Of a stretch of DNA of 64,000 nucleotides, positions 9,487 to 36,656 are shown in pieces. Made by a program: the position numbers and the translations under genes. Every line of letters begins with the position of its first letter. The first letter of the stretch is position 1. Source of the DNA: Candidatus Komeilibacteria bacterium RIFOXYD1_FULL_37_29 (GTDB taxonomy: Bacteria > Patescibacteriota > Patescibacteriia > UBA1558 > GWA2-36-10); the NCBI GenBank assembly GCA_001818495.1, contig MHKS01000005.1:323890-387889 (forward strand), in the 5' to 3' direction. Under the pieces are notes generated by a model. It had not been told where the DNA came from. It saw only the letters and a program-made list of their open reading frames with translations, and made no database searches.

Positions 9487-10101
9487 ATGATTATAGAGCT
9501 CTATGGTTTGTCGGGTAGCGGTAAATCAACACTAGCTAGGCGTTTGGTAGAAATTGACAGTGCAAAATTTGTGCTGGCGGATTTTTCCAATAAATTGGAA
9601 AGATATTTTTATTTGTTACTTTACCTAATAAATAATCCGGTCACTTTTACTAATTGGTTATTATTTTTATGGCAAAATAGAAAATTATTTAGCTATAAGT
9701 TGCATTTGCTATTTTTATCTATGGCCAAGCTACAGAAAGCTGTTTTGATAAAAGATAAAAAAGTTTTGTTAGATGAAGGATTATTACAGCGGGTTTTAAC
9801 TATTGCTGATAGTGAGATTGATAATCGGCTTTTGGATAAATTATTAAAACATCTGAATAAATTGGGACATTTGATTATCATGGAAGGCGGAGATTGGCAG
9901 CGTTTTGTAAAATATAGTAATAAAGAAAATAGCCCCCGAGTAAAAATGGGGCAGGAGTATTTGGAGTCTTGGCAGAATTTACAAAGCAAAAATAATGATA
10001 TTATAAAAAAATATCTGGCCCAAAAGCAGTCATTGAAAAAATATATTTATAATAAAGAAAACATAACGGCAGAAAAAGTGACCCTTGACTTGATTGATTG
10101 A
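9487..10101 (+). CDS. Small P-loop NTPase/kinase-like protein (Walker A GLSGSGKSTLA, identical to the adenylylsulfate-kinase P-loop; remainder unrecognised)
   Basis: Walker A at residues 7-17; no APS-kinase DGDN motif seen, so specific function unknown. Confidence 0.4.
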   Translation: MIIELYGLSGSGKSTLARRLVEIDSAKFVLADFSNKLERYFYLLLYLINNPVTFTNWLLFLWQNRKLFSYKLHLLFLSMAKLQKAVLIKDKKVLLDEGLLQRVLTIADSEIDNRLLDKLLKHLNKLGHLIIMEGGDWQRFVKYSNKENSPRVKMGQEYLESWQNLQSKNNDIIKKYLAQKQSLKKYIYNKENITAEKVTLDLID

Positions 10102-10177: not shown

Positions 10178-10732
10178 TCATAGATGGTTCTGCAAATCGT
10201 GTAGAAAGTCATTCGCATAGGCTTCTTTGAGAGCATAGAGCTCTTGAGCTTCTGGTAGCAAACAATGGAATTTTCCTAGTACCTGTTCTTGTAGGTACTG
10301 AAGAGATTCTTCCAAGGTTTTACCAATAGCAACACCAGTGCAGAGCGTCTTTACGATGAGGAAGGTTTTACCGCCCTCTAATAGATGTGCATCATGGGCA
10401 ATTTTGCCTTCGATGCTGACAATGGTCTCAGCCGAGGTATTCTTTTCAGAATCCCAAGCTATTCTTATGACCAGATCAATGTTCCGCTTAGACATACCCT
10501 TAGACTGAAGAAAACTTATAATTGACTTTTCGCCGTTTTCCAAATGGATGACCCCATGGAAATATAGTGATAAGTTTATAAGCTTAAGATTAGCTTCCGG
10601 ATAGTTAGCGGCTAGTTCAAGCACTATCTTTTGGACGCGCTTAATGTGACCAAGGTCGTGCATGACATCCTTTATTATGTAATAGGGTCTCACGAAATTA
10701 ATCACAGCTCTTTCGGATGGAAATCTAGCCAC
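10178..10732 (-). CDS. HD-domain phosphohydrolase
   Basis: H...HD...D pattern (MHDLGHIKRVQKIV ... AHDAHLLEGG) typical of HD superfamily metal-dependent phosphohydrolases. It is the only minus-strand gene in this part of the locus. Confidence 0.55.
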   Translation of the reverse strand: MARFPSERAVINFVRPYYIIKDVMHDLGHIKRVQKIVLELAANYPEANLKLINLSLYFHGVIHLENGEKSIISFLQSKGMSKRNIDLVIRIAWDSEKNTSAETIVSIEGKIAHDAHLLEGGKTFLIVKTLCTGVAIGKTLEESLQYLQEQVLGKFHCLLPEAQELYALKEAYANDFLHDLQNHL

Positions 10733-10877
10733 GATTTAACCTTTCTCTGTTTTTAATACTCTAACTTATTTAGGGTATTATATTATAATAACATATTTTA
10801 GTGTTTTTGTCAATATTATTATATCATAATGTATTTGATTTTTGGCTTATGAAATGGTATAGTTTTTTCAGTAATTT

Positions 10878-12116
10878 ATGGAAATTTTACATAATATTAA
10901 GGTAATTGTTCATAGTATATTGGCCTGGTTGGTTTACGGCCTTTCTTTTGTTTTTCCGCGTGATAAAAAGCTCTGGGTGGTGATGGGTTGGCGGATGAGT
11001 AAGCACAGGGAACTATTTGGTGACAATGCTAAGTATTTTTTTCTTTATGTTGCTAATAATTTGCCCAAAGATATTAAAGTAGTTTGGATTGGTCGTGATA
11101 ATGATATTTGCCAAATTCTCAGACAACGCGGTTATCAAGCTTACAATCTTTTCAGTCTAGCTGGCGTTTGGACGTCTTTAAGAGCTGGGTATACTATCGT
11201 TGATGCTAATATTCGTTTGGAAAATTGGCAGTATAGTGGCGGTTCTAGATTGATCCAACTATGGCATGGTAAATCTTTGAAAAAAATGGGGCACAACAGT
11301 CCTTATGCCATGGGGCGGTATAAAAAATTTAGTTCACCAAATTTGTTTAGAAAATTTTATCTTTTAACGGCCGCTTCCAAATTTTTGGGGGATTTCAATG
11401 TTTCTGGATTTAGAATTAATCCTGATGATCTGGTAGTGACTGGATTGCCGCGTTATGATGTGTTGTTTGAATCAGTCAAAGATTCGGATATTGATATTGA
11501 TTTAGGATTAAAAGACAAGCTGGAGCGGTTAAAAAAAGAATATAAGAAAATTGTTTTTTATGCGCCGACTTTTCGTCCGGATGGCAGTAATCCTTTGGTG
11601 GGAGTTGATTTAAATTCTTTAAATAGTGTTTTAGCCGAGGCAAATTATTATTGTTTAATCTCCCTTCATCCAAAATTTGCTAACAAAGATTGGCAGCCCA
11701 AGGAAAAATTTAGCCACCTTGATTTTGTGGAAACTGGATTTGATTTGTATCCTTTGATGAATAAATTTGATTTGTTGATCACTGATTATTCATCGCTAGC
11801 TTTGGATTTTCTATTGGTCAAGGTACCAGCCATTTTATATATTTATGATTTAGAATCTTTTGAAAAGGGCATGGGTATTCATCAGGAAATAGCCGATGCT
11901 CTACCTGGTCCCCGAGTAGAAAATTTTGACAGGCTATTAGAAGTTTTAAAAGGCGATACCTACAACTGGAGCGAGCAGCATGATCAAGCCAGAAATACAT
12001 TTTTTACTTATCAAGATAATAAATCTGCTCAAAGAATAACCAATATCTTGTTGGAAGTGCTCGCTACGCCTGGTCAAACTATAGCCGAAGCCAGAAAATA
12101 TTTGGAGAATAAATAA
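10878..12116 (+). CDS. CDP-glycerol/polyol-phosphate glycerophosphotransferase, TagB/TagF family
   Basis: Family-typical motifs LIQLWHGKSLKKMG, VFYAPTFRPDG and LITDYSSLALDFLL. Confidence 0.7.
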   Translation: MEILHNIKVIVHSILAWLVYGLSFVFPRDKKLWVVMGWRMSKHRELFGDNAKYFFLYVANNLPKDIKVVWIGRDNDICQILRQRGYQAYNLFSLAGVWTSLRAGYTIVDANIRLENWQYSGGSRLIQLWHGKSLKKMGHNSPYAMGRYKKFSSPNLFRKFYLLTAASKFLGDFNVSGFRINPDDLVVTGLPRYDVLFESVKDSDIDIDLGLKDKLERLKKEYKKIVFYAPTFRPDGSNPLVGVDLNSLNSVLAEANYYCLISLHPKFANKDWQPKEKFSHLDFVETGFDLYPLMNKFDLLITDYSSLALDFLLVKVPAILYIYDLESFEKGMGIHQEIADALPGPRVENFDRLLEVLKGDTYNWSEQHDQARNTFFTYQDNKSAQRITNILLEVLATPGQTIAEARKYLENK

Positions 12117-12124
12117 TTAAGTCT

Positions 12125-13126
12125 ATGAAGAAAATAAAAATATTAATTACCGATCCAATAGATACTACTGGCGTTAAAATGTTGGAAGATAATGGATACA
12201 CAATAACTCAAAAATCTGATTTAAACAAAGAGGAGTTATTAAAAATAGCCGGAGATTATGAGGCTATTATTTGTCGTAGCTCTACGCCGATTGACCGGGA
12301 GGTTATGGAGTCAGCCAAAAAATTAAAGTGTATTGCTATTACTTCTACTGGCTGGGATACCATAGATATAAAAACCGCTGATCGTTTGAAGATAGCAGTG
12401 TTTGGTCAGCCGGCTAATTCTAAAGGTGGAGATATCAGTCGAGAAGGTAGTTTTACTCCGACAGCCGAACATACTATTTTGTTTATGTTGGCTTTGGCGG
12501 GAGATTTTTATAATACAGCCAGGGTTATGAAAGAAGGCCGCTGGGAAAAGTTTGGTTTTGCCGGTACGGAATTATTGGATAAAACATTGGGGATTATTGG
12601 TTTTGGTCGTATCGGTCAGTTGGTCTCTCAGCGGGCTCAGGCCTTTGGTATGAAAATAATAGCTTATGATCGGGACGGTAATGATAAGAGTAAAAATTTA
12701 CAGCTGACTTTTCCAGTGGCGTTTGTTGATCTTAAGACACTTTGCCGTCAGGCGGATTTTATAACTATTCATTTGCCTAAGACAGCGGAGACTATTGATA
12801 TGATAGGTGATCGGCAATTAGAGCTAATGAAAAAAGAGGTCATTATTATTAATGCCGCTCGAGGTGGAATTATCAATGAAGAGGCTTTAATCAAAGCCTT
12901 GAAGAATAATAAAATTCGAGCAGCCGGGTTAGATGTTTTTGTCAGTGAAGGCCATGATTTAAATATGGATCTTATATCTTTACCCAATGTGATAGCCACT
13001 CCGCATATTGCCGGAGTCAGTAGCGAAGGTCAAAGAAGAAGATCAGTAGCGACCGCTCAAAATATTATCTCTTTTTTTGAAAAGGGAGACCTAAATAATT
13101 TAGTTAATAATTATAAAAATAGTTAA
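12125..13126 (+). CDS. D-isomer-specific 2-hydroxyacid dehydrogenase (SerA/GyaR/hydroxypyruvate-reductase-like)
   Basis: NAD-binding GIIGFGRIGQLVSQRA; catalytic R/E/H region ...INAARGG... and ...ATPHIAG. Confidence 0.75.
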   Translation: MKKIKILITDPIDTTGVKMLEDNGYTITQKSDLNKEELLKIAGDYEAIICRSSTPIDREVMESAKKLKCIAITSTGWDTIDIKTADRLKIAVFGQPANSKGGDISREGSFTPTAEHTILFMLALAGDFYNTARVMKEGRWEKFGFAGTELLDKTLGIIGFGRIGQLVSQRAQAFGMKIIAYDRDGNDKSKNLQLTFPVAFVDLKTLCRQADFITIHLPKTAETIDMIGDRQLELMKKEVIIINAARGGIINEEALIKALKNNKIRAAGLDVFVSEGHDLNMDLISLPNVIATPHIAGVSSEGQRRRSVATAQNIISFFEKGDLNNLVNNYKNS

Positions 13127-13127
13127 G

Positions 13128-13850
13128 ATGAAAGCAGTCATCATCGCCGGCGGTCAGGGAAAAAGACTCTTACCTTATACTAAAGATATTCCCAAATGTT
13201 TGGTAAAGGTTAATGATAAAGCAATTTTAGATTACCAATTGGAAGCTTTGGATTTTTGTAATATTAAAGATATAGCGATAGTCACCGGTTTTGGCGATAA
13301 ATTTGTCAGGGAGCATTTGAAAGCCAAGGGAATAAAAATTACTGTTATTGAAAATAAAAATTATCAAAATACTAATAATGCTTATGGCATTTGGTTGGCT
13401 CGTGATTATGCGTTAGATAGCCCAGATGGATTTTTATTGATAAATTCTGATTTGATTTTCCCTCCAACAATGTTGAAATTTTTAATAGAGCATTCGGAAA
13501 AAGACGCTATTATTATAGAGCCAACAACTGAGCAGAGTAGTGATATGGTCAAGGTAAAAATGGAAGGAGATAATATAGTGGCCATGAGCAAAGAAATTCC
13601 TCCTCAAGAAACAGCGGCTGAAGCAGTCGGTCCGGTAAAATTTTCTCATGATGGTGGTCAAGCTTTTATGGATTTTATTGGTAGTTTTATTGCTAAGGGA
13701 GAGTTAAATCATTGGTTTTTTTATATGTTAGGCGATTTTGCCAGACAAAGGTGGCTAGCCGGCATAAAAAATCCTGGGTTTGTCTGGACAGAAATTGATA
13801 CACCAGAAGATTTAAAGCAGGCCGAACAGATAGTTAAAAGGCTTAAGTAG
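13128..13850 (+). CDS. LicC-family sugar/head-group phosphate cytidylyltransferase (NTP_transferase fold)
   Basis: MKAVIIAGGQGKRL...PK.LV N-terminus; strong collinear resemblance to pneumococcal LicC, including the ...NYQNTNNAYGIWLARD... block. Confidence 0.6.
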   Translation: MKAVIIAGGQGKRLLPYTKDIPKCLVKVNDKAILDYQLEALDFCNIKDIAIVTGFGDKFVREHLKAKGIKITVIENKNYQNTNNAYGIWLARDYALDSPDGFLLINSDLIFPPTMLKFLIEHSEKDAIIIEPTTEQSSDMVKVKMEGDNIVAMSKEIPPQETAAEAVGPVKFSHDGGQAFMDFIGSFIAKGELNHWFFYMLGDFARQRWLAGIKNPGFVWTEIDTPEDLKQAEQIVKRLK

Positions 13851-13855
13851 CAAGT

Positions 13856-15034
13856 ATGGGTAAAGATCTAATCAGAGAATTGGACAATTTACTGGGTTCA
13901 CAGTTGGAGCCAGTCTTTAAAAGACTGCCAGATTATCAGCCGGCGGTTTTAAATTTTTTACAGAAAAATAAAGAATTATTTGATCAGAAAATAAAACAAC
14001 TAAAAAACGAATATGGTGAAGGCGACTACAAATTATTGCTGGATAAAAAGCTATTAGTGATTGAAGATAAATTGGCCAGTTATTTCAAGGGTCAATCTAT
14101 TTATAATTTGGAAGAGCAACAAGAGATATTAAATTTTATCTTTAGTCGTTGTCCGAAAAATTTAAAATGTGGCTATTTTCTAAAAGAAGAAACTGCCAGA
14201 GATATTTTGACAAAAAATCGGCCATCGACGCTATTAGATTTTTATAAGTGTCAGACCACTCAAGAACTTTTTAAAAAAATATCAGCAATAGAAATTATAA
14301 CAATTTCTCGCTATACAGAATTTCCAATTTGGCAGGAAAATTATAAAAAAATTCTATCAGTTTTAGATAAAAATGACTTTGAAAAAAGAGCCATAGCCTA
14401 TTCATTTTTAGATTATCATAAATATAAAAGTATTTTACGAAATTCTAATCAGCCTGATAAGCCCTGGCGTCTTAGTCACAACAAAGTGACGGGGGCTATT
14501 ATATGTTTTAGTATCAACGATCGGGAAGAATTTAAGACGCCTTTTTTGGAATACTTGGCAGTTTTTATACATTATTATTTTGAAACAGCCTATGCGGGGC
14601 AGTATTATCAGGCCATAGCCTATCACCAAGCAAATCTCGGTCAGGCAGTGTTAGATTCTTTTACTAATCATAATCGTAAATTTGATTTTTTTGGGCCCAA
14701 TGTTTATTCAGAAACGGTTTATTGGCAAGAGGCTATAAATTTGTTGAATCAAGAATTTGATATTCCGGAATTAAAATTTTTTAAGGATACTGTTTATTGC
14801 GGGGCTTTTTCCGGCGTAGAGTTAATTTCTTTGAATTTAGTTGATAAAATTTGGGATGCTAATTTTTCTGGACGACCATTTTTATATCATTTTCAAGAAG
14901 CGGCTTGGAAGGAAATATTTCAAAAAATTGTTAAAATGTCTGATAGAGAGTTTGATCGGGAAATAATGAAAAATCTTAATATGAGGGATTTGGATTTTAC
15001 AGATTATGTAATCAAAAAAAGTTTTAATAAATAA
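13856..15034 (+). CDS. Hypothetical protein (392 aa) embedded in the head-group biosynthesis cassette
   Basis: Uninterrupted ORF with operon packing; no family recognised by eye. Confidence 0.4.
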   Translation: MGKDLIRELDNLLGSQLEPVFKRLPDYQPAVLNFLQKNKELFDQKIKQLKNEYGEGDYKLLLDKKLLVIEDKLASYFKGQSIYNLEEQQEILNFIFSRCPKNLKCGYFLKEETARDILTKNRPSTLLDFYKCQTTQELFKKISAIEIITISRYTEFPIWQENYKKILSVLDKNDFEKRAIAYSFLDYHKYKSILRNSNQPDKPWRLSHNKVTGAIICFSINDREEFKTPFLEYLAVFIHYYFETAYAGQYYQAIAYHQANLGQAVLDSFTNHNRKFDFFGPNVYSETVYWQEAINLLNQEFDIPELKFFKDTVYCGAFSGVELISLNLVDKIWDANFSGRPFLYHFQEAAWKEIFQKIVKMSDREFDREIMKNLNMRDLDFTDYVIKKSFNK

Positions 15035-15036
15035 GC

Positions 15037-17133
15037 ATGCCCAAACCAATTATCATGACCAGCGATTTGTCTATGTTGCCTCCGGCAGTAGCTTTGACCG
15101 TGGCTTCTCAATATGGGCACCATCGGTTTCCTTGGTTTGAAGAAATTTTAAAATATATTAGTGATTATTTTACTAAAGTTTTTGGTAATCAGTATCAGGT
15201 TTTGATATTAACCACTAATTTATCAGGAGCGCGGCAGGCTTTAGATTTTAAAAATTTTAAGGTGCTAGACATCTCTAATTCTTTGGGAGCTGATTACAGC
15301 AGTTTTAAAGACGACGCTATTGATGCCTATCTAATAGCTCCGGAAAGGGTTTTGATGGGGATACCGGGGGCTATCATTGTAGTTTTTAAAAAATCATCAG
15401 TCGCTAAACTAGAAGGTATTTTGGAAAAGCTCACTATCAAGCCATATTCTTTAGATATTTTAAAAGCTTATAATGTTTGGGAGAAGAAACAAAGTACGCC
15501 TTTCTCTCCCAGTATTAGTTCGGTAGTAGGACTGGTGGCAGCCTTAAATTTTATCGAAGCACATGGCGGTTTGTCGGAGCATGTCAAAAGACATCAAGAG
15601 TGGGCGGCTTTTATTCGTAATTATTTGAAAGCTAGCGGCTTAACAGTTATTGATGATAAATCTTTTAGTAATTCTTTTACTGTTTGCCGACTGCCGGTTG
15701 GTATCAAAGCACCGGAGGTAGTGGAAAAATTGGCTAAAGAAAATATTTTTATAGAATTGGGTGACGATCCTAGTAGTATCAAGATTGGCCACTTGGGTTA
15801 TATTACCCAGCAATCCCTGGAAAAATTTATTAAGGAATTTGATAAATTATTCGGTCAGCACAGCGATTTATCATTTGAGGATATCAAAAAATATACTTTC
15901 GATTCGGACGAGAAAGCTTCAGCGTTGGTTTTGAATGCTCTAGATGAAAAATTATTAACACCCGGTCCGACTTTTTTTAATCGGGATGTTTTTAATGTTT
16001 TAGATCAATATACTTATTATAACTCTAAGCAGTTTAGAAAAGATTTTTTCAGCTTGAGTGACAGATTGAGTAATTGGTTAGGAGCTCATAACCAGACACT
16101 CATTTTATCAGCTCCCAGTACTGGGTTTATGGAAGCAGCTATTGTTAGTTTGACAGAGCAAAGTGCTATCGGGTTGGTAGTTTCTCACGGTAAATTTGGT
16201 GATCGTTGGATGGAAATTTGCCAAGCAAAAAATAGAGATTATGTCAGTCTCACTGTAGCCGAAGAAGAATGGGGTAAAGCTTTTTCTCCACTAGAGATAG
16301 AAAATTTTTTAATTAGCCAATCCAAGAAAATTGATTTTATTTGTTTTCAACAAAATGAGACTAGTAGTGGAGTAGCTTATAACCAGCCACAGCTGATAGA
16401 AATTACTAAGGTTGCCAGAAAATATAATCCTGAAATTATAATAATTATGGATTTTGTCAGTGGGTCTTTCGCTCATGATATAAATTTTGACCAAATAGAT
16501 ATTGATGCGGCGGTTATTGGATCACAAAAGGGATTGGGGATATCTTCGGGAATTTCTTTTATGATGGTTAGTGATCGGGTAATCAGTAAATTGTTAAAAT
16601 TAGCGCAGTATCCAAATAATTGGTCAGAATTTTTACAGGAAAAATCCGTTGATAAATATATGGATATTTTTGAAAATAAACAGCAGGCCGGATATTTGAA
16701 TATTTTAAAAATACTTTTTGGGGCAGTTAAAAAGCAAATGATTGATATGCCAAATATTTTTCATGTTTATTCGGCTTTAAAATCTTTGGATTTGATAGAT
16801 AAAATGGGTGGCCAGAAGGTTTTTCTAAAACACCATGAAAATTTAGCTAAACTCACCAGAAAGCATATTAAAGAATTAGGTCTTCAGATATTGGGCGATA
16901 AAGAATATTTATCCAATTCAGTTACTTTAGTCTTGTTTCCTAATAATATTGATGCCAGTCAAATAAAAAAAGCCCTAAAGGATAAATACAGCTTAGCGGT
17001 AGCTGGAGCTCAAGGGGATTATTGGAAATCAAAATTTATTAGGATAGGGCACATGGGTTATCTCAGTAGCCAAGATATAGATAGTTTATTTAAAGCTATT
17101 AAGATTATATTGGAGGGTTATAAAAAAATGTAG
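15037..17133 (+). CDS. Tandem class-V (AGXT/SerC-like) aminotransferase fusion: N-terminal pseudo-domain with the PLP lysine replaced (PERVLMGIPG) and a C-terminal intact domain (SQKGLGISSG)
   Basis: Both halves end with the family motif (K/R)IGH(L/M)GY. The second half starts with LLTPGPT, typical of class-V aminotransferase N-termini. Aligning the two PLP-lysine regions shows a K to R substitution in the first half. Confidence 0.55.
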   Translation: MPKPIIMTSDLSMLPPAVALTVASQYGHHRFPWFEEILKYISDYFTKVFGNQYQVLILTTNLSGARQALDFKNFKVLDISNSLGADYSSFKDDAIDAYLIAPERVLMGIPGAIIVVFKKSSVAKLEGILEKLTIKPYSLDILKAYNVWEKKQSTPFSPSISSVVGLVAALNFIEAHGGLSEHVKRHQEWAAFIRNYLKASGLTVIDDKSFSNSFTVCRLPVGIKAPEVVEKLAKENIFIELGDDPSSIKIGHLGYITQQSLEKFIKEFDKLFGQHSDLSFEDIKKYTFDSDEKASALVLNALDEKLLTPGPTFFNRDVFNVLDQYTYYNSKQFRKDFFSLSDRLSNWLGAHNQTLILSAPSTGFMEAAIVSLTEQSAIGLVVSHGKFGDRWMEICQAKNRDYVSLTVAEEEWGKAFSPLEIENFLISQSKKIDFICFQQNETSSGVAYNQPQLIEITKVARKYNPEIIIIMDFVSGSFAHDINFDQIDIDAAVIGSQKGLGISSGISFMMVSDRVISKLLKLAQYPNNWSEFLQEKSVDKYMDIFENKQQAGYLNILKILFGAVKKQMIDMPNIFHVYSALKSLDLIDKMGGQKVFLKHHENLAKLTRKHIKELGLQILGDKEYLSNSVTLVLFPNNIDASQIKKALKDKYSLAVAGAQGDYWKSKFIRIGHMGYLSSQDIDSLFKAIKIILEGYKKM

Positions 17134-17139
17134 CTACTG

Positions 17140-18399
17140 CTACATTTTTTTATTGACTGCTTTTTTCCAAAGGCAAGTCCTTAATATTATAGATATCAAC
17201 ATGCTGAGCAATTTTGCTATGATGATACCGAAGATACCATAGTAATAACCCAAACAGAACATTAGTACAATGAGTGAGATATTTTGTACCCAGGTGTTTT
17301 TTTGAATAATATCTATCATCTTTTGAGAACGCAAGAGAGAAGCCATAACAGATGAAATAGATTGTAGCAATATCATTATAGAAAATAGTATAGAAAAAGG
17401 CATGGATGATATATACTGCGGAACAAAATATTTAAAAAAGAAGGGGGCGAGTATTATATAAATCGCCATTAGGACTGAGCCCAAAATTGCAGTCATAATC
17501 AGTTTATGGCTTAGACTTTTGTCTAGTTCTTGGGCAGATCTTTGAGATAATTTGGGCAAAGTCAAAGGGACTATATTTTTGACTATTTGTTTTACTTGAT
17601 CAACTGGAGTAATGGCCATAAAATATATAGCCAACTGAACTGGTCCTAGGTATAAGTAGACTAGCAATTTGTCCGCTTGAGCACTAAGAGTATTGACTGA
17701 CTCGGCTATAGTCAGTGCTAGGCCGTATTTTTTTATTGGTTGATTTTTTACATTATCATCAGGAATTTCTTTGGCCGTTAGATATGATACTAAGTAGCGG
17801 GACATCAGAAGACCAACAAAATATATTAGAGTGATAATAAATATATTTTTTGTAACAAAGATAACGCCTAAGATAATTAAAGAATGAAGTATTTTTACTA
17901 TCGAATTTTTCCCAGTAATTTTTTTAAAGAGCTGTCGTCCGTTTAGGGTAGCAGAGTACAAAGTAAAGGCTTCAGCTAATGGTAGAAACATCGCCACAGC
18001 TATAAAAGCCAGAGAAAAATATAAACGGTCGTTTAAAAAATAATATAAGGCTATGCCTAAACTGATTAAGGAGGCGATTAGGCCGTATTTTATTTTATAG
18101 AGCGTTAAGTCTTTGACACTTATTTTTTCCCCTTTAGCTATAGATTGAGTAACGGCTGTATTTATTCCCGGTAGGGTAAAAATACCTATTAAAGCCGCGA
18201 CTGATAATATATATTTGTAGTCGCCATAAGTTTCTTTGGGTAGTAAATTTGCAAAAATTATAGCCAAGACAAAAGATGCGGTGGCTGATATGCCCTGTCC
18301 AACGCTTAACCAAAAACCACCCTTAGCTAGATAGACCATATCTGTTCGGGTGTATTTTTCGCTTCGGCGGAGTAGTTTATATACAAAATCTTTAAGCAT
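17140..18399 (-). CDS. Wzx-type oligosaccharide flippase (MOP/polysaccharide biosynthesis protein family)
   Basis: ~12 TM helices and a length and hydropathy pattern typical of Wzx; glycan-locus context. Confidence 0.6.
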   Translation of the reverse strand: MLKDFVYKLLRRSEKYTRTDMVYLAKGGFWLSVGQGISATASFVLAIIFANLLPKETYGDYKYILSVAALIGIFTLPGINTAVTQSIAKGEKISVKDLTLYKIKYGLIASLISLGIALYYFLNDRLYFSLAFIAVAMFLPLAEAFTLYSATLNGRQLFKKITGKNSIVKILHSLIILGVIFVTKNIFIITLIYFVGLLMSRYLVSYLTAKEIPDDNVKNQPIKKYGLALTIAESVNTLSAQADKLLVYLYLGPVQLAIYFMAITPVDQVKQIVKNIVPLTLPKLSQRSAQELDKSLSHKLIMTAILGSVLMAIYIILAPFFFKYFVPQYISSMPFSILFSIMILLQSISSVMASLLRSQKMIDIIQKNTWVQNISLIVLMFCLGYYYGIFGIIIAKLLSMLISIILRTCLWKKAVNKKM

Positions 18400-19375
18400 T
18401 TTTTTTGTAATACTCTTTGTACCAGTCTGTAAATTTTTTAATCCCTTCTTCTATGGGAGTCTTGGGCGTGAAGCCCAATTTTTTTTGGGAGTTTTTTATA
18501 TCAGCCGCAGTAGATAATATATCTCCCGGTTGCATCGGTAGTAGTTTCTTTTTGGCTTTTTGGCCGATATTTTTTTCTAGCAGAGCTATAAAATATTGCA
18601 AATTAATTGGTCGGTTATTGCCCAGATTAAATATTTCGTAGGGGTAAGAATGGTGGAGGGCTGATAAGACACCGTCGACTATGTCGTCTATGTAAGTAAA
18701 ATCCCTTTTCATTTTTCCATAGTTGAACACTTTTATAACTTGGTTTTGGGATATAGCTTTACTAAAAATTATCGGTGACATGTCTGGGCGGCTATAGGGT
18801 CCATAGACCGTGAAAAATCTAAGTCCTGTGCAGTTTATTCCAAAAAGATGATGATAAGCGTGAGCTATTAGTTCATTAGATTTTTTGGTAGCCGCATAAA
18901 GAGATATCGGCCTATCAACATTGTCTTCTACGGAGAATGGTGTTTTTTTATTTTTGCCATAAACTGAGCTAGAAGAAGCATAAATAAAATCTTTGATCTT
19001 ATGTTTTCGGACTTCTTCTATTAAATGGGAAAAGGCTATTAGATTTGATTGTATATAAGCTTGAGGATTAATTAGACTATATCTGACTCCTGGCTGAGCA
19101 GCCAAATGGCAGACTTTATCTATTTTTTCTGAATTTAAAACTTTTTTTATAAAATTTAGATTGGCCAAATCTCCTTTGCAGAATTTGTAGTTTTTATATT
19201 TTTTTAAAATATTGTTGCGATCTTTTTTAAGGTTGACATCGTAATAATTATTAAGGTTATCGATGCCGATGACTCTTACTCCCATTTCCAATAATTTTTT
19301 GGCTACATGAAAGCCGATAAAGCCGGCTGAGCCGGTAACCAATATGCTCGTGCCTTTTTTAAATTTTATATTCAT
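18392..19375 (-). CDS. NAD-dependent nucleotide-sugar epimerase/dehydratase (UDP-glucuronate 4-epimerase-like SDR)
   Basis: Rossmann motif ILVTGSAGFIGFHV; catalytic YAATKKSNE (YxxxK). Confidence 0.8.
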   Translation of the reverse strand: MNIKFKKGTSILVTGSAGFIGFHVAKKLLEMGVRVIGIDNLNNYYDVNLKKDRNNILKKYKNYKFCKGDLANLNFIKKVLNSEKIDKVCHLAAQPGVRYSLINPQAYIQSNLIAFSHLIEEVRKHKIKDFIYASSSSVYGKNKKTPFSVEDNVDRPISLYAATKKSNELIAHAYHHLFGINCTGLRFFTVYGPYSRPDMSPIIFSKAISQNQVIKVFNYGKMKRDFTYIDDIVDGVLSALHHSYPYEIFNLGNNRPINLQYFIALLEKNIGQKAKKKLLPMQPGDILSTAADIKNSQKKLGFTPKTPIEEGIKKFTDWYKEYYKKNA

Positions 19376-20736
19376 TAGCGTCCCAAAGTTTTATTAAAAA
19401 TAGTGTTGATAGTTTTGAGTATAATAGAAATGTCCAGGGCGATAGAACGATTTTTGATATAAAATAAATCGTATTGTAATTTTTCTTTAGCGTCTTCAAC
19501 ACTGGCTCCGTAGGGAAAATTTATCTGGGCCCAGCCGCTTAGTCCTGGTTTAACTAGGTGTCTTTCATTGTAAAAGGGGATTGATTGTTTGAGGGTATCT
19601 ACAAACTCGGGTCTTTCGGGACGTGGGCCGACAAAACTCATATTACCTTTTAAAATATTGATAAATTGCGGTATTTCATCGATTCTGGTTTTACGTATAA
19701 ATTTTCCAATTTTAGTAACCCGAGAGTCGTTTTCTTTAGCCCACTGGGCGCCGTTGGTTTCAGCATTGGCAGTCATGGAACGGAGTTTGTAAACAGTAAA
19801 TATTTTATTATTTAAACCCACTCTAGTTTGTTTGTAAATAAGTGGTCCTTTTGATTCCAATTTGATGGCCAGGGCTATAAAAGGGAGTATCAGTAAAGAC
19901 AGTAGACCAAAAAATGCCGACAATAATATATCGATAATCCTTTTAGTGACCGCTACCCATTGTTGATTTTTGTGCGTGATATTTTCCAAAAACCAATGGC
20001 GCTCCAAGGAACTGATTGGTACTTTGCCGGTAATTTTTTCGTAAAAATCTGTTAGATTGAAGTATTGAATTTTTAAATCTATGTTTTCAAATAAATAACG
20101 AGCTACCTCGGGGCTGTATTTTGGATCATTGACCGCTACCACAATGTTTATTTTATGCTCCAATATTTTATGGCGCATTTCACTGATATCTCGAGTAATA
20201 TCCAGTGTTTTAAATTTTTCTGGAATATCTGACAAATCAGGATTGATTATTAACTTGAGCTTGTAACCCAATTGTGGTTTGGCCAGTATTTCTTCAGCCA
20301 AAAGTAGCGATTCGCTATTTATGCCGATAATAGATAAACTATCACCCAATCTGTCACTAGAAATAAGTTTGTAGAAAATTTTTCTCCAGAGTAGGAAAAG
20401 AATGGCAAAGACAGCCACTAGTATCAGTAAGATGGTTTGCGGTCTGATGCCGGTCACAGTACCAACCAAATAAAAGAATAATATAGCCAAGAGGCCGTTG
20501 ATAAATAGATTTTGTACCAAGGCACCATAAAATTTAAAGCCTTGTTGGACTTTGTTTATTTCATATAAGCCATTTATAAAGAAAACAATAATCCAAACCG
20601 CAAAGACAATAGAAAATGGACCAAGGTGTTTAAGCCATAGTTCTTGATCAAGATAAGAAAAGCGCAGCCATAGAGTGATAGCTAGCGCACTATAAAGCAA
20701 TAGCAAATCTCCGATTAAAAGGATTATTTTCCGCAT
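19375..20736 (-). CDS. Polyprenyl-phosphate hexose-1-phosphate transferase (WbaP/CpsE-like initiating bacterial sugar transferase)
   Basis: C-terminal catalytic domain KIFTVYKLRSM...RIDEIPQFINILKGNMSFVGPRPERPEF; N-terminal TM helices. Confidence 0.8.
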   Translation of the reverse strand: MRKIILLIGDLLLLYSALAITLWLRFSYLDQELWLKHLGPFSIVFAVWIIVFFINGLYEINKVQQGFKFYGALVQNLFINGLLAILFFYLVGTVTGIRPQTILLILVAVFAILFLLWRKIFYKLISSDRLGDSLSIIGINSESLLLAEEILAKPQLGYKLKLIINPDLSDIPEKFKTLDITRDISEMRHKILEHKINIVVAVNDPKYSPEVARYLFENIDLKIQYFNLTDFYEKITGKVPISSLERHWFLENITHKNQQWVAVTKRIIDILLSAFFGLLSLLILPFIALAIKLESKGPLIYKQTRVGLNNKIFTVYKLRSMTANAETNGAQWAKENDSRVTKIGKFIRKTRIDEIPQFINILKGNMSFVGPRPERPEFVDTLKQSIPFYNERHLVKPGLSGWAQINFPYGASVEDAKEKLQYDLFYIKNRSIALDISIILKTINTIFNKTLGR

Positions 20737-22540: not shown

Positions 22541-23488
22541 ATGAAATTATCTATTGTTTTGCCAATTTATAATGAAGAAGAAAACCTCAGATTACTTTAT
22601 GATCAGCTTATTAGCCCTTTAAATAAATTGGGAGAAAAATATGAAATTGTTTGTGTCAATGATGGATCATCTGATAATAGTTGGGGGGTCTTAAAAGATT
22701 TGGCTAGCCAGGATAGTAATGTAAAAGTGGTTAATTTTAAAAATAATTTTGGACAAACCGCCGCTATGTCCGCCGGTATAAAATTTTCTCAGGGAGAAAT
22801 AATTATACCAATGGATGCGGATTTACAAAATGATCCGGCCGATATTTACAAATTTTTAGAAAAAATAAATGAAGGTTTTGATGTGGTGTCTGGCTGGAGA
22901 AAAAATAGACAAGATACTCTCATTAGTCGTAAACTGCCTTCTTGGATTGCCAATTGGATTATTGGTAAGATTACTGGCGTAAAAATTCATGATTACGGCT
23001 GTTCTATGAAAGCTTATAAAAGAGAAATTATAAAAGATGTTAATCTTTATGGTGAAATGCATCGTTTTATACCGGCTTATGCTTCGTGGCAAGGAGCCAA
23101 AGTTACAGAGATAGTTGTAAATCATCATCCTCGCATTCATGGGCAGACCAAATACGGCCTAGGCAGAACTTTTAAAGTCGTTTTAGATTTAATAGTTGTA
23201 AAATTTTTATCGGTTTATATGAACAGGCCGATTCACTTTTTCGGGGGTTTAGGTTTTATGTCCTTGTTTTTAGGAATAGTAATTGGTATTATGGCTGTCT
23301 TGCTTAGAATTTTTGAAATAAAATATATTGTGGAAACTCCCTTACCTACTTTGTCGGCTCTTTTGGTTATTGTCGGTGTTCAACTGATAGCCATGGGCAT
23401 TTTAGCAGAGATGATTATGCGAACTTATTATGAGTCACAGCATAAAGAACCTTATATTATAAAAGACAAAATTAATTTTACTGATTAA
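22541..23488 (+). CDS. GT2 polyprenol-phosphate sugar synthase (ArnC/GtrB/DPM1-like)
   Basis: LSIVLPIYNEEENL...VCVNDGSSDNS...DADLQNDP (DxD) plus two C-terminal TM helices, the typical GtrB/ArnC architecture. Confidence 0.7.
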   Translation: MKLSIVLPIYNEEENLRLLYDQLISPLNKLGEKYEIVCVNDGSSDNSWGVLKDLASQDSNVKVVNFKNNFGQTAAMSAGIKFSQGEIIIPMDADLQNDPADIYKFLEKINEGFDVVSGWRKNRQDTLISRKLPSWIANWIIGKITGVKIHDYGCSMKAYKREIIKDVNLYGEMHRFIPAYASWQGAKVTEIVVNHHPRIHGQTKYGLGRTFKVVLDLIVVKFLSVYMNRPIHFFGGLGFMSLFLGIVIGIMAVLLRIFEIKYIVETPLPTLSALLVIVGVQLIAMGILAEMIMRTYYESQHKEPYIIKDKINFTD

Positions 23489-25353
23489 TGTGTGGTATTG
23501 CCGGTTACCTTGGTTATGGTAATCAAAAAATATTAGAAGAAATGACAAATACTCTTTATCATCGGGGTCCCGATGATAAAGGTTTTTTACTAGACGGAAA
23601 AGTGGGATTAGGACATCGTCGTTTGTCTATTATTGACCTGAGTCACTCTGGTCATCAACCAATGTCCAATGAAGATGGATCAATCCAGATTGTTTTAAAT
23701 GGCGAGATTTATAATTACTTAGATTTAAAGAAACAGTTAAAAAATAAACACCAATTTGTTAGCCAGACTGATACAGAAATTATTATTCATTTATATGAGG
23801 AAGTCGGTGAGCGAGTATTTCAATATCTTAGTGGTATGTTTGCTCTGGCTATTTATGATAAAAACAAGCAGAAATTGATTTTGGCCAGAGACAGAATGGG
23901 TAAAAAACCTTTATATTGGGCCAAATTTGAAGATACACTGATGTTTTCTTCCGAATTAAAATCCTTGATTAAACATCCAAAATTTAAAAAAGAGCTTAAT
24001 TTAGAGGCTTTGAATAAGTATTTGCGTTATGAATATGTGCCCACCCCACATTCCATATTTAAAAATGTCTATAAATTGGAGCCTGGCCATTATTTAGAAT
24101 ATGATGGACAAAATATAAAAAAAGTAAAATTTTGGGATGTTAGTTTTCAGGCAACGGATTTGAGTTTTGATCAGGCTGTCAGTAAACTGGATGAAAAAAT
24201 CAATCAGGCTACAAAAATCAGACTAGTCAGTGATGTACCACTGGGGGTATTTCTAAGTGGTGGTATTGATAGTAGTTTGGTGACTTATTATGCACAAAAA
24301 AATAGTTTACAGAAGATAAAAACATTTTCCATTGGTTTTAAGGAAAAGAGTTTCGACGAATCAGATTATGCTAAGCAGGTAGCCGATTATTTAGGTACCG
24401 ATCATCAGCAAGCTATTTTATCAGCTCAGGATTCCTTGGAATTTATTCCGCAAATTGCCGATTTATTGGACGAACCCATGGCCGATCCGTCCATCGTGCC
24501 CACATATTTATTATCAAAATTTACCAAACAGCAGGTTACTGTAGCCTTAGGTGGAGACGGGGGAGATGAATTATTTTTAGGCTATGACACTTTTGTGGCT
24601 CAGCGTTATGCCGATATTTATGATAAAGCACCGATGTTTTTGAGAAAACTTATAGCCAAAGCTACCAGCGGCCTGCCGAGCTCTTTTAGTAATATTAGTT
24701 TGGATTTTAAAATAAAAAAATTTACCCAGGATTTTGAAGGAAATAGAATGTATCGTCATCATCGTTGGTTGGGCTCTTTTGATTATAATCAGAAAGCGAA
24801 TTTATTCACTGAGGATATTTGGCGCAATCTAAAAAATAACAACGAATTTGATGATCTTGATAATTATTTAAAAATTTTCAAGGAGAATAATTATTATAAA
24901 AAATTAATTTATTTTTATTTTAAAACTTATTTATTAGATGATATTTTAGTAAAAATAGATAGAGCTAGTATGTTTAATGCTTTGGAAGTTCGGGCTCCTT
25001 TATTGGATTATAATGTAGTGGATTTTGCTAATTCTTTGCCACTAGATTATAAATTAAAAGGTACAGAAACAAAATATATCCTTAAAAAATTGATGTCTGG
25101 TAAATTGCCAGATGATATCATTTATCGCAAAAAAAAGGGTTTTGGTATGCCCATTGCTTCTTGGTTAAGCAATGAATTAAAGCCGCTGGTGCAAACATTA
25201 TTAGCTCCAGACAAGATAAAACAAGAGGGTTTGTTTAATTATAAATATATAGAGAAATTATTAAATAATCATTTTGAAAAAAAACAAGATAATCGTAAGT
25301 TGATCTGGACGCTTCTAGTATTTGAAATGTGGAGAGAAAAATGGTTTAATTAA
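23488..25353 (+). CDS. asnB: Asparagine synthetase (glutamine-hydrolysing) family amidotransferase, probably a glycan/uronate amidating enzyme
   Basis: N-terminal MCGIAGY (Cys2 nucleophile); PP-loop SGGIDSS; start overlaps the upstream stop (TAATG) within the glycan operon. Confidence 0.8.
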   Translation: MCGIAGYLGYGNQKILEEMTNTLYHRGPDDKGFLLDGKVGLGHRRLSIIDLSHSGHQPMSNEDGSIQIVLNGEIYNYLDLKKQLKNKHQFVSQTDTEIIIHLYEEVGERVFQYLSGMFALAIYDKNKQKLILARDRMGKKPLYWAKFEDTLMFSSELKSLIKHPKFKKELNLEALNKYLRYEYVPTPHSIFKNVYKLEPGHYLEYDGQNIKKVKFWDVSFQATDLSFDQAVSKLDEKINQATKIRLVSDVPLGVFLSGGIDSSLVTYYAQKNSLQKIKTFSIGFKEKSFDESDYAKQVADYLGTDHQQAILSAQDSLEFIPQIADLLDEPMADPSIVPTYLLSKFTKQQVTVALGGDGGDELFLGYDTFVAQRYADIYDKAPMFLRKLIAKATSGLPSSFSNISLDFKIKKFTQDFEGNRMYRHHRWLGSFDYNQKANLFTEDIWRNLKNNNEFDDLDNYLKIFKENNYYKKLIYFYFKTYLLDDILVKIDRASMFNALEVRAPLLDYNVVDFANSLPLDYKLKGTETKYILKKLMSGKLPDDIIYRKKKGFGMPIASWLSNELKPLVQTLLAPDKIKQEGLFNYKYIEKLLNNHFEKKQDNRKLIWTLLVFEMWREKWFN

Positions 25354-27982: not shown

Positions 27983-27983
27983 T

Positions 27984-28406
27984 ATGGCAGTCAGAACAGA
28001 AAAGTTTATATTATTTTATCTTGGTGGAGAAAAATATGCCTTACCGGCTTTATCGGCTAATCAGTTTATTGAGTTTAGTGATTTAGCTTTGGTGCCCAAG
28101 GCCGATCAGGATATCAGGGGCTTGATTTATCATAACGGCAATATTATTACTATTATTGATTTGAAGAGAGTTTTAAAGATTGTATCACCAAAACGAGAAG
28201 CTTCTCACATGTGTCTTACTTTTGAATACGGTGGGTATTATTATGGTCTATTGGTTGATCAAGGTGATGAGACTTTAGCAGTCAAAAATATTTCCAGTGA
28301 TAGACAAAGGCCAGTGTTTAAAAGATATTTTACAACGCCGGATAAAAAAAGAATTTATATTTTGGATATTGAGGAAGTATTGTCCCAAATAAATATTTAT
28401 GATTAG
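27984..28406 (+). CDS. cheW: CheW-like coupling protein
   Basis: Single CheW domain (FILFYLGGEKYALPALSANQFIEF...IRGLIYHNGNIITIIDLKRVL); good RBS GGAGAAAAA. Confidence 0.7.
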   Translation: MAVRTEKFILFYLGGEKYALPALSANQFIEFSDLALVPKADQDIRGLIYHNGNIITIIDLKRVLKIVSPKREASHMCLTFEYGGYYYGLLVDQGDETLAVKNISSDRQRPVFKRYFTTPDKKRIYILDIEEVLSQINIYD

Positions 28407-29943: not shown

Positions 29944-29948
29944 CAATT

Positions 29949-30428: not shown

Positions 30429-30462
30429 TTTTATGTTTTTAAAACGATAAATTTCAAATAGC

Positions 30463-32148: not shown

Positions 32149-32152
32149 AAAT

Positions 32153-34450: not shown

Positions 34451-34451
34451 A

Positions 34452-36652: not shown

Positions 36653-36656
36653 TTAA

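What the first reader, a model, noticed from the sequence alone, without database searches (positions are those of the whole stretch)
10878..17133. Head-group biosynthesis/transfer cassette inside the glycan locus: TagF-like transferase, 2-hydroxyacid dehydrogenase, LicC-like cytidylyltransferase, unknown 392-aa protein and tandem aminotransferase
The combination resembles routes that make CDP-activated small polar head groups. A SerA/hydroxypyruvate-reductase-type dehydrogenase plus a class-V aminotransferase could interconvert 3-carbon hydroxy/keto/amino acids (glycerate, serine or serinol-type compounds). The LicC-like enzyme would CMP-activate the phosphorylated product and the TagB/F-family enzyme would transfer the phospho-head group onto a glycan. 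This predicts a teichoic-acid-like or phospho-amino-alcohol-decorated surface polymer whose exact head group I cannot name from the sequence. The 392-aa unknown could be the missing kinase or phosphatase.
Basis: inference. Interest (0 to 1): 0.6.

Follow-up and report, generated by a model that had tools for sequence, protein, structure and literature searches.

The report
CDP head-group cassette with new enzyme
A five-gene operon in a candidate-phyla-radiation bacterium most likely makes a CDP-activated, serine-type phospho head group and attaches it to a surface polysaccharide, and it includes a previously undescribed metalloenzyme-like protein family that always travels with the pathway.

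Summary
Five tightly packed + strand genes at 10878-17133 encode a TagF-like phosphotransferase, a short PGDH-like dehydrogenase (DH), a LicC/PntC/IPCT-like nucleotidyltransferase (NT), a 392-aa unknown (called ZL here) and a 698-aa class-V aminotransferase protein (AT). The host is a Komeilibacteria MAG, and the genes sit in a Wzx/Wzy glycan locus.

DH, NT, ZL and AT form one conserved module. Gene order is kept in CPR relatives down to 47% identity. In other loci, one named Vicinamibacterales, the module is two coupled genes: an NT-ZL fusion and an ATn-DH-ATc fusion. A TagF-like gene is the usual neighbour; one locus has a CDP-alcohol phosphotransferase-like gene instead. This supports a CDP-linked donor.

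The "tandem" aminotransferase is one active domain plus a truncated copy without the catalytic lysine. ZL has no Pfam, NCBIfam or PDB sequence match. A confident model (pLDDT 96.6) resembles zincin metallopeptidases only distantly, with H-Y-x-x-E...E in place of HExxH...E. It is not an APH or HAD fold.

Best reading (inferred): 3-phosphoglycerate to O-phosphoserine to CDP-serine or a ZL-tailored derivative, then transfer to the glycan. The head group and ZL's reaction remain unproven. New variant of a known kind.

The parts
10878..12116 (+). TagF/TarF-like CDP-alcohol:glycan phosphotransferase (412 aa); predicted to transfer the phospho head group from the CDP donor to the glycan
   Evidence: PF04464 1.5e-54, covering 41-392. 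Best PDB matches are TarL 8va1 (7.4e-23), TagF 3l7i and Bcs3. The WHG and LHP histidine motifs and the ITDYSS motif align with TagF. NCBIfam TarF/TarL/TarB equivalog cutoffs are not reached.
12125..13126 (+). Short (type III-like) D-3-phosphoglycerate-dehydrogenase-like 2-hydroxyacid dehydrogenase (333 aa)
   Evidence: PF02826 and PF00389. TIGR01327 PGDH scores 306.9 bits against 222 for glyoxylate reductase. Top PDB match is the P. horikoshii PGDH 1wwk (1.1e-56), followed by human PHGDH. The Arg/Glu/His triad, the 'RS' motif and the W-E-K cationic residue are conserved. There is a ~13-residue insertion at positions 97-110.
13128..13850 (+). LicC/PntC/IPCT-like nucleotidyltransferase (240 aa), predicted CTP-dependent activator of the phosphorylated head group
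   Evidence: PF00483 and PF12804. PDB matches are LicC 1jyk (4.7e-14, N-terminal) and the Tde1415 PntC domain 6pd1 (6.9e-14, residues 2-232). R13, K23, D108 and the EID motif are conserved. The PntC amine-binding residues Glu104 and Glu196 align with Asn106 and Asn194. The domain is fused to ZL in P0008, P0012, P0017 and in L066-L076.
13856..15034 (+). ZL: 392-aa protein of an undescribed family, remotely zincin-like, with invariant R152, G213, H239, Y240, E243, E286; reaction unknown
15037..15936 (+). ATn: truncated class-V-fold pseudo-aminotransferase domain (residues 1-300 of the 698-aa protein) lacking the catalytic lysine
   Evidence: 28% identical to the C-domain (E 6e-14), missing ~115 residues, with GSQK replaced by APER. 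The Lys position is G, R, H or K in homologues, while the motif PExALMGIPG is conserved.
15937..17133 (+). ATc: complete AGXT-type class-V aminotransferase domain (residues ~301-698)
   Evidence: PF00266. PDB match 2dr1 'serine aminotransferase' at 4e-38, plus SGAT and AGAT. NCBIfam BhcA, PhnW-AepZ and pyridoxamine-pyruvate AT all score ~146-150 bits, below their cutoffs. The GSQK lysine is invariant and the RIGHMGY Arg is conserved.
10733..10877 (.). Divergent intergenic region upstream of the operon
   Evidence: Contains promoter-like matches on both strands: minus strand 10813-10785 (11/12) and plus strand 10835-10863 (9/12 with TG). The number of sites in the region is not above shuffles.
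17140..18399 (-). Convergent Wzx-type flippase that bounds the cassette (context, same glycan locus)
   Evidence: PF01943 1.8e-24. The position is conserved in L001 and L005.

Best explanation
The operon is the split, CPR version of a conserved biosynthetic module that makes a CDP-activated small phospho head group for a Wzx/Wzy-dependent surface polysaccharide.

Most likely route:
1. The PGDH-like dehydrogenase oxidises 3-phosphoglycerate to 3-phosphohydroxypyruvate.
2. The active C-terminal AGXT-type aminotransferase domain converts that to O-phospho-L-serine.
3. The LicC/PntC/IPCT-like nucleotidyltransferase condenses it with CTP to give CDP-serine.
4. The zincin-like metalloprotein ZL acts immediately next to the nucleotidyltransferase step, either tailoring the CDP-linked head group or handling a nucleotide or phosphate product.
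5. The TagF-like enzyme transfers the phospho head group to a hydroxyl of the undecaprenyl-linked repeat unit, releasing CMP, before Wzx flips the unit.

Shown here: gene content, domain families, catalytic motifs, conserved linkage and domain fusions.
Inferred: substrates, direction, CTP use, the identity of the head group, and any activity of ZL.
For: 1. All five genes and domains are present, with 1-8 nt spacing.
2. The module is conserved. The same order occurs in L001/L002/L010/L069, L003/L004 and L005, and a permuted order (Wzx-DH-NT-ZL-AT-TagF) in L011.
3. Domain fusions link the steps. NT-ZL fusions are seen in P0008, P0012 and P0017. ATn-DH-ATc fusions of ~1100-1216 aa form roughly 30 clusters. 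The two fused genes are adjacent or overlapping in L006, L066-L068, L070, L071 and L073-L076.
4. The downstream enzyme is always a CDP-donor type: TagF-like in 9 loci and a weak CDP-OH_P_transf hit in L006.
5. The DH is closest to PGDH (307 bits against 222 for glyoxylate reductase). It keeps the Arg/Glu/His triad and the cationic residues equivalent to PHGDH R54 and R135.
6. ATc keeps the Schiff-base Lys and the carboxylate Arg. Its best solved relative is an archaeal 'serine aminotransferase'.
7. The NT matches the PntC domain of a PntC-aminotransferase fusion over its full length. The acidic amine-binding residues of PntC are Asn here, which fits a less cationic substrate.
8. TagF's catalytic His motifs are conserved.
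9. The surrounding locus encodes a polyprenyl-phosphate sugar transferase, five GT4 enzymes, Wzy-TPR and Wzx.
Against: - No enzyme was assayed, and CDP-serine is not a described metabolite. One irrelevant hit came from 8 million papers, and no paper links serine phosphate to cytidylyltransferases in polysaccharides.
- The route 3-phosphoglycerate to phosphoserine to CDP-serine needs only DH, AT and NT. It therefore gives no necessary role to the obligatory ZL.
- Loci assigned to other phyla (e.g. the Vicinamibacterales-named L066), whose hosts presumably have SerA/SerC (not checked here), still carry a dedicated DH-AT. This could mean the substrate is not 3-phosphoglycerate.
- DH, AT and NT all score below the curated cutoffs of every NCBIfam equivalog.
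- AT scores equally with BhcA, PhnW-AepZ and pyridoxamine-pyruvate transaminase models.
- The NT's best NCBIfam hit is a sugar-1-P nucleotidyltransferase model, N-terminal part only.
- The N194 equivalent is not conserved in P0017. This is my reading of the sequences.
Confidence: 0.42

Rival explanations
1. A different, more ordinary CDP donor. The NT activates a common phospho-alcohol such as glycerol-3-P or ribitol-5-P. Alternatively it activates phosphoethanolamine or phosphocholine made from phosphoserine by decarboxylation and by the locus methyltransferases. The TagF-like enzyme then adds that group. DH/AT only supply serine or phosphoserine as a precursor, and ZL performs the missing conversion (for example decarboxylase- or phosphatase-like).
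For: TagF-family enzymes characterised so far use CDP-glycerol or CDP-ribitol (established knowledge; PDB names). The NT's best single PDB hit is the phosphocholine cytidylyltransferase LicC. Two SAM methyltransferases sit directly upstream in the CPR loci. This reading gives ZL a needed step.
Against: The methyltransferases are absent next to the module in the non-CPR loci. The LicC/PntC acidic residues that bind a cationic amine are Asn in this NT. A zincin-like fold is not a known decarboxylase scaffold. No GpsA, TarJ or LicA-type gene is found in the cassette.
Confidence: 0.2
2. Glycerate-phosphate head group. The aminotransferase and dehydrogenase run in the catabolic direction (serine to hydroxypyruvate to D-glycerate). 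ZL phosphorylates or otherwise prepares the glycerate. The NT makes CDP-glycerate, and the TagF-like enzyme adds glycerate phosphate, possibly amidated later by the AsnB-like enzyme at 23488-25353.
For: ATc's solved relatives are serine:pyruvate and serine:glyoxylate aminotransferases. The DH also scores well with glyoxylate/hydroxypyruvate reductases (222 bits; 5aov and 2dbq). An AsnB-type amidotransferase is conserved in the locus.
Against: 2- and 3-phosphoglycerate are glycolytic intermediates, so a route from serine would be redundant. The DH scores 85 bits higher with PGDH and keeps PGDH-type cationic residues. ZL shows no kinase fold or P-loop. AsnB also occurs in loci that have ZL but no NT, DH or AT.
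Confidence: 0.12
3. Phosphonate tailoring. The module makes a CMP-activated phosphonate (AEP, phosphonoalanine or phosphonolactate type), as in the PntC pathway.
For: The NT aligns over its full length with the PntC domain of Tde1415, which is itself fused to a class-V aminotransferase. ATc scores 148 bits with the PhnW-AepZ model. PGDH-like reductases of phosphonopyruvate are known (from my memory of the valinophos pathway; not checked here).
Against: No PEP mutase or phosphonopyruvate decarboxylase was found in any of the related loci for which Pfam families are listed. None was found among the window ORFs scanned. PhnW-AepZ and PhnW cutoffs are not met. ZL has no resemblance to the PEP mutase TIM barrel. 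TagF and CDP-alcohol transferases act on phosphodiester-forming CDP donors.
Confidence: 0.06
4. The genes are merely neighbours. The NT is a sugar-1-phosphate nucleotidyltransferase for the glycan backbone, DH and AT are housekeeping serine-pathway enzymes, and ZL is unrelated.
For: Several sugar-1-P nucleotidyltransferase models hit the N-terminal half of the NT. CPR operons often mix functions.
Against: The NT-ZL and ATn-DH-ATc fusions and their translational coupling occur in at least 10 independent loci from different lineages. The order is conserved at 47% identity. Sugar-1-P models do not cover the C-terminal substrate half, whereas PntC and IPCT models do.
Confidence: 0.04

Closest known systems
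Lic (phosphocholine) and Pnt (CMP-2-aminoethylphosphonate) surface-tailoring pathways: LicC of S. pneumoniae, PntC-AEP transaminase fusion Tde1415 of T. denticola (PMC6697681)
   Same: A small LicC-like nucleotidyltransferase activates a phosphorylated or phosphonylated two- or three-carbon amine for transfer to a surface glycan. A class-V aminotransferase makes the substrate just before activation. Sequence similarity extends over the whole NT.
   Different: There is no PEP mutase and no lic genes. The transferase is TagF-like or CDP-alcohol-transferase-like rather than LicD-like. A PGDH-like dehydrogenase and the ZL protein are obligatory. The amine-binding Glu/Asp residues are Asn.
Teichoic-acid and capsule CDP-alditol phosphotransferases (TagF/TagB/TarF/TarL, Bcs3, Cps3D)
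   Same: Pfam PF04464 domain, conserved histidine motifs and CDP-binding motif. Predicted chemistry is transfer of an alcohol phosphate from a CDP donor with release of CMP.
   Different: Below all NCBIfam equivalog cutoffs. It is paired with a donor pathway unlike TagD/TarI-TarJ. It lies in a Wzx/Wzy repeat-unit locus, so it is probably a single-addition decorating enzyme rather than a polymerase (inference).
Phosphorylated serine pathway SerA/SerC, especially the short archaeal type (P. horikoshii PGDH 1wwk; AGXT-type aminotransferase 2dr1)
   Same: DH and ATc have these as their best solved relatives. The catalytic residues are conserved, and DH and AT are fused in relatives, as expected for consecutive steps.
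   Different: No ACT or ASB regulatory domain and no SerB. The genes are embedded in a glycan locus and coupled to a nucleotidyltransferase. An extra lysine-less aminotransferase-like domain is present.
Campylobacter jejuni O-methyl phosphoramidate pathway
   Same: Precedent for cytidylylation of an amino-acid phosphate (phosphoglutamine to CDP-glutamine), followed by a hydrolase acting on the CDP-linked amino acid. This is a possible analogy for NT followed by ZL.
   Different: The enzyme families are unrelated except for the NT, and the start and end products differ.
Zincin/gluzincin metallopeptidase fold (DUF885 3u24/3iuk, M32, M1, thermolysin)
   Different: The motif is H-Y-x-x-E rather than H-E-x-x-H, so the catalytic Glu is missing. 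Foldseek and sequence profiles find nothing significant. The genomic and fusion partners are nucleotide and sugar-phosphate enzymes, not proteolysis.

Membership tests
TagF/TagB/TarL CDP-alditol phosphotransferases (PF04464) | Glyphos_transf domain above the Pfam gathering score | tested here: met
   185.8 bits against a cutoff of 22.1, covering 41-392
TagF/TagB/TarL CDP-alditol phosphotransferases (PF04464) | Two catalytic histidines (TagF H444 and H584; residue numbers from memory) and the D-Y-S-S nucleotide-binding motif | tested here: met
   WHG, LHP and ITDYSS align with IQTWHG, RMHY and ITDYSS of 3l7i
TagF/TagB/TarL CDP-alditol phosphotransferases (PF04464) | Equivalog-level identity with TarF, TarL or TarB (CDP-glycerol or CDP-ribitol donor) | tested here: not met
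   109, 93 and 55 bits against cutoffs of 550, 1000 and 500. Donor specificity is not testable in silico.
D-3-phosphoglycerate dehydrogenase (SerA) | 2-Hacid_dh catalytic and NAD domains with the Arg/Glu/His triad | tested here: met
   PF00389 and PF02826. R, E and H align with 1wwk and human PHGDH.
D-3-phosphoglycerate dehydrogenase (SerA) | TIGR01327 trusted cutoff | tested here: not met
   306.9 bits against 454. Only model positions 1-311 of 525 are matched, so this is a short form without the ASB/ACT domains.
D-3-phosphoglycerate dehydrogenase (SerA) | Activity on 3-phosphoglycerate/3-phosphohydroxypyruvate | not testable with these tools
   Only residue conservation is available: the RS motif and a Lys at the PHGDH R135 position. 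Residue roles are recalled from the literature.
LicC / PntC small-molecule cytidylyltransferases | N-terminal G-x-G-x-R...K signature and metal-binding Asp/Glu | tested here: met
   GGQGKRL...PK, SDL and EID align with 1jyk and 6pd1
LicC / PntC small-molecule cytidylyltransferases | Acidic pair contacting the substrate amine (Tde-PntC E104/E196; LicC D105/D192, PMC6697681) | tested here: not met
   Asn106 and Asn194 occupy the aligned positions. The C-terminal alignment has low confidence.
LicC / PntC small-molecule cytidylyltransferases | Genomic association with ppm (Pnt) or licA/licD (Lic) | tested here: not met
   None found in the window ORFs scanned or in the related loci with listed Pfam families
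Class-V (AGXT-type) aminotransferases | PF00266 domain with the Schiff-base lysine in S-x-Q-K | tested here: met
   C-terminal domain: GSQK is invariant in 11 homologues. N-terminal domain: not met (APER; G, R, H or K in homologues).
Class-V (AGXT-type) aminotransferases | Equivalog cutoffs of PhnW-AepZ, PhnW, SerC and BhcA | tested here: not met
   148 against 361, 84 against 401, 41 against 444, and 150 against 650
Zincin metallopeptidases | HExxH motif with a catalytic Glu | tested here: not met
   H239-Y240-x-x-E243 is invariant in 62 sequences. One further homologue outside that set, the P0017 fusion, has Arg at position 239.
Zincin metallopeptidases | Zincin fold | tested here: inconclusive

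The most novel reading that the evidence does not exclude
ZL founds a new enzyme family: a zincin-derived metalloenzyme with an H-Y-x-x-E...E site that acts on a cytidine-diphosphate-linked amino-acid phosphate. Together with NT, DH and AT it makes a donor never described before (CDP-serine or a derivative). This would define a new class of phospho-amino-acid, teichoic-like decoration on exopolysaccharides of CPR bacteria and of other, soil-type bacteria (one such locus is named Vicinamibacterales). Its paralogues next to PfkB or PFK would point to a second, unknown reaction in sugar-phosphate or nucleotide metabolism of Saccharibacteria.
Probability: 0.3. Interest if true: 0.78.

Novelty: new variant of a known kind. 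Interest (0 to 1): 0.62.

Why it matters
Surface chemistry of CPR/Patescibacteria, which live attached to host cells, is almost unknown. This module predicts a charged phosphodiester-linked head group built directly from a glycolytic intermediate, in organisms that lack most biosynthesis. The same module in fused form occurs in exopolysaccharide loci of other phyla, so the predicted modification would be widespread yet undescribed.

The analysis also assigns a biochemical neighbourhood to a protein family with no annotation: 334 representatives at 50% identity. That family can now be tested with a short list of substrates. A TagF-family enzyme using a non-alditol donor would also widen the known donor range of that family.

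Tried and rejected
- **Phosphonate pathway.** No PEP mutase or decarboxylase was found in the window ORFs scanned or in the related loci with listed Pfam families.
- **CDP-serinol made by oxidation and amination of CDP-glycerol.** This is disfavoured because DH and AT keep their carboxylate-binding arginines.
- **Two active aminotransferases.** Rejected, because the N-domain lacks the lysine in most homologues.
- **Literature.** Searches for CDP-serine, for serine phosphate with cytidylyltransferase, and for Patescibacteria teichoic-type loci found nothing relevant.
- **Genome scan.** The first scan, with the 62-sequence alignment, failed because it had no conserved stretch. It was repeated with 17 sequences.
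- **Promoter and terminator scan.** The number of sites was no higher than in shuffled sequence.
- **Wider ZL contexts.** The PfkB, PFK, adenylate kinase, LOG and SbnA-like neighbours suggest nucleotide or phosphoester chemistry, but they did not identify the reaction.

Full report
**Observation**

- 10878-12116 (412 aa)
- 12125-13126 (333 aa)
- 13128-13850 (240 aa)
- 13856-15034 (392 aa)
- 15037-17133 (698 aa)

Pfam assigns Glyphos_transf (1.5e-54), 2-Hacid_dh_C plus 2-Hacid_dh (9.1e-58, 1.2e-25), NTP_transferase and NTP_transf_3 (1.1e-17, 7e-13), nothing, and Aminotran_5 (3.5e-17), in that order. The 392-aa protein is 100% identical to a hypothetical protein of a Candidatus Komeilibacteria MAG, so the host is a CPR/Patescibacteria bacterium.

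The cassette lies in a Wzx/Wzy-type glycan locus:
- Wzy-TPR at 100-2343
- five GT4 genes
- two methyltransferases
- a P-loop protein
- Wzx at 17140-18399 (-)
- an epimerase
- a polyprenyl-phosphate sugar transferase at 19375-20736 (-)
- PMT_2, GT2 and AsnB

**The individual proteins**

*TagF-like protein.* It aligns with TarL, TagF, Bcs3 and Cps3D and keeps the WHG and LHP histidine motifs and the ITDYSS motif. It is far below the TarF, TarL and TarB equivalog cutoffs.

*Dehydrogenase (DH).* It is most similar to 3-phosphoglycerate dehydrogenases. TIGR01327 scores 307 bits against 222 for glyoxylate reductase. The best solved relatives are the short P. horikoshii PGDH 1wwk and human PHGDH. It keeps the Arg/Glu/His triad and the cationic positions corresponding to PHGDH R54 and R135. 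It has a ~13-residue insertion near residues 97-110.

*Nucleotidyltransferase (NT).* Its N-terminus matches LicC. Over its full length it matches the AEP cytidylyltransferase (PntC) domain of Tde1415, a protein in which PntC is fused to a class-V aminotransferase (PMC6697681). Sugar-1-phosphate transferase models match only the NTP-binding N-terminal part. The two acidic residues that contact the substrate amine in PntC align with Asn106 and Asn194. This hints at a less cationic substrate, although the C-terminal alignment is weak.

*698-aa protein (AT).* It is not two aminotransferases. Residues ~305-698 are a complete AGXT-type domain with the GSQK lysine and the RIGHMGY arginine. Residues 1-300 are a diverged copy lacking ~115 residues. 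Its lysine position is Arg here and Gly, Arg, His or Lys in homologues.

**The module is conserved and fused elsewhere**

The order TagF-DH-NT-ZL-AT recurs in contigs whose ZL proteins are 47-59% identical (L001/L002/L010/L069, L003/L004, L005). A Spechtbacterales MAG has Wzx-DH-NT-ZL-AT-TagF (L011).

A full profile search of 1.84 billion representatives found 334 ZL relatives. Three of the best are ~650-aa proteins with an N-terminal NTP_transferase domain.

A search with the 698-aa protein found about 30 clusters of 1100-1216-aa proteins with the architecture ATn-2-Hacid_dh-ATc. One of these is named from a Vicinamibacterales MAG.

In L006, L066-L068, L070, L071 and L073-L076 the NT-ZL gene is directly followed by the ATn-DH-ATc gene, often overlapping it. 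TagF-like genes lie close by in L067, L068, L070 and L076. In L006 the neighbour is instead a 245-aa protein with weak CDP-alcohol phosphatidyltransferase hits.

Three conclusions follow:
- DH, AT, NT and ZL are one pathway.
- DH and AT are consecutive steps, and NT and ZL are consecutive or cooperating steps.
- The product is used by enzymes that take CDP-linked donors.

In the CPR lineages a stand-alone PGDH-like gene accompanies a decaying embedded DH segment (L003, L011). In the window that segment has been lost completely.

**The 392-aa protein (ZL)**

ZL has no hit in Pfam, NCBIfam or PDB sequences, even with a 62-sequence profile. With that alignment AlphaFold2 gives a confident model (pLDDT 96.6, pTM 0.94).

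Across 62 family members R152, G213, H239, Y240, E243 and E286 are invariant. E155, W159, K202, H208, K210, W290, D330, Y344 and H345 are nearly so. One further homologue outside that set, the NT-ZL fusion P0017, has Arg at position 239.

H239 and E243 lie on the long helix after the beta-sheet, and E286 lies on a following helix. These are the positions of the three metal ligands in gluzincins. The motif, however, is H-Y-x-x-E rather than H-E-x-x-H. I infer a metal site without the peptidase general base, and therefore a different reaction.

More distant family members sit in other contexts:
- In Saccharimonadia, an RpiB-Rpe-Tkt-FBA-PfkB-ZL operon, with PfkB overlapping ZL in 48 of 51 loci.
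- Fusions to PFK, adenylate kinase, a cytidylate-kinase-like domain or LOG.
- In Saccharibacteria glycan loci, next to an SbnA/CysK-like PLP enzyme.

The common theme is nucleotide and phosphoester metabolism. The exact reaction remains unknown.

**Mechanism proposed**

The most economical chemistry needs three things: a 2-hydroxyacid dehydrogenase, then an aminotransferase that keeps an alpha-carboxylate, then a nucleotidyltransferase that needs a phosphate monoester. That chemistry is 3-phosphoglycerate to 3-phosphohydroxypyruvate to O-phosphoserine to CDP-serine. The TagF-like enzyme would then transfer serine phosphate to the lipid-linked repeat unit.

Dedicated SerA- and SerC-like enzymes make sense in CPR bacteria, which generally lack amino-acid biosynthesis (general knowledge).

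The weaknesses are:
- This route leaves the obligatory ZL without a required step.
- Non-CPR hosts also keep a dedicated DH-AT.
- No curated equivalog cutoff is met.
- CDP-serine is undescribed.

I therefore give about 0.75 to 'CDP-activated small head group transferred by the TagF-like enzyme' and about 0.4 to 'phosphoserine-derived'.

The rivals are an ordinary or decarboxylated/methylated donor, glycerate phosphate, a phosphonate, and mere neighbourhood. They are listed with their evidence in the rival-explanations section.

**Comparison and novelty**

The logic matches the Lic and Pnt tailoring pathways and teichoic-type phosphotransfer. No known system combines a PGDH-like dehydrogenase, an AGXT-type aminotransferase with a pseudo-domain, a LicC-like transferase and this new protein family. 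No paper in the library describes it. I rate it a new variant of a known kind, containing an uncharacterised enzyme family.

Noticed in passing
window 9487-10101 (+): A 204-aa P-loop protein (GLSGSGKST) with no family or PDB match. It is conserved directly upstream of the cassette in CPR loci L001, L003 and L005 but is absent from the non-CPR loci. It could be an accessory kinase.
   Followed up: partly
window 10178-10732 (-), hairpin 10159-10126: A 184-aa protein with HD-domain-like motifs (MHDLGH, AHDAH) and a weak phosphohydrolase hit, transcribed divergently from the cassette. A 15-bp terminator-like hairpin follows it. It is conserved in L001/L010 only.
   Followed up: partly
L015-L064 (e.g. 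L034 4114-9469; L017 2609-4618): Distant ZL paralogues in Saccharimonadia sit in a pentose-phosphate/glycolysis operon (RpiB, Rpe, transketolase, class II FBP aldolase, PfkB ribokinase-like kinase, ZL, sometimes a LOG-like gene). PfkB overlaps the ZL start in 48 of 51 loci.
   Followed up: partly
P0127 (4065 aa, Endomicrobiales), P0048, P0075, P0114: ZL-like domains are fused to PFK (P0127, which also has an epimerase domain), to a cytidylate-kinase-like domain in a protein that also carries a glucan-synthase domain (P0048), to LOG (P0075) and to adenylate kinase (P0114). This suggests the family deals with nucleotides or sugar phosphates.
   Followed up: partly
L009, L013, L014 (e.g. L013 7992-10187): In Saccharibacteria glycan loci ZL lies next to an SbnA/cysteine-synthase-like PLP enzyme and an AsnB-like protein. 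These loci have no NT, DH, AT or TagF.
   Followed up: partly
L066 1-1198 and 5145-6716; L067 519-5918; L068 4210-5637 and 12537-15365: Non-CPR loci with the fused module also encode Exo_endo_phos, PLDc_2 and Metallophos proteins, most of them with carbohydrate-binding (CBM) or Ig-like (Big_7, fn3) modules. These may be phosphodiesterases that remodel a phosphodiester-containing glycan.
   Followed up: no
window 15037-15936 and homologues: The lysine-less N-terminal aminotransferase-like domain keeps its own conserved motif (PExALMGIPG) across phyla. It is probably functional in some non-catalytic or non-canonical way.
   Followed up: partly
window 26840-37538: Downstream of the glycan locus are chemotaxis genes (an MCP-like gene and CheA) and type IV pilus/T2SS-F genes, including pilin-like proteins with lectin-type domains.
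   Followed up: no
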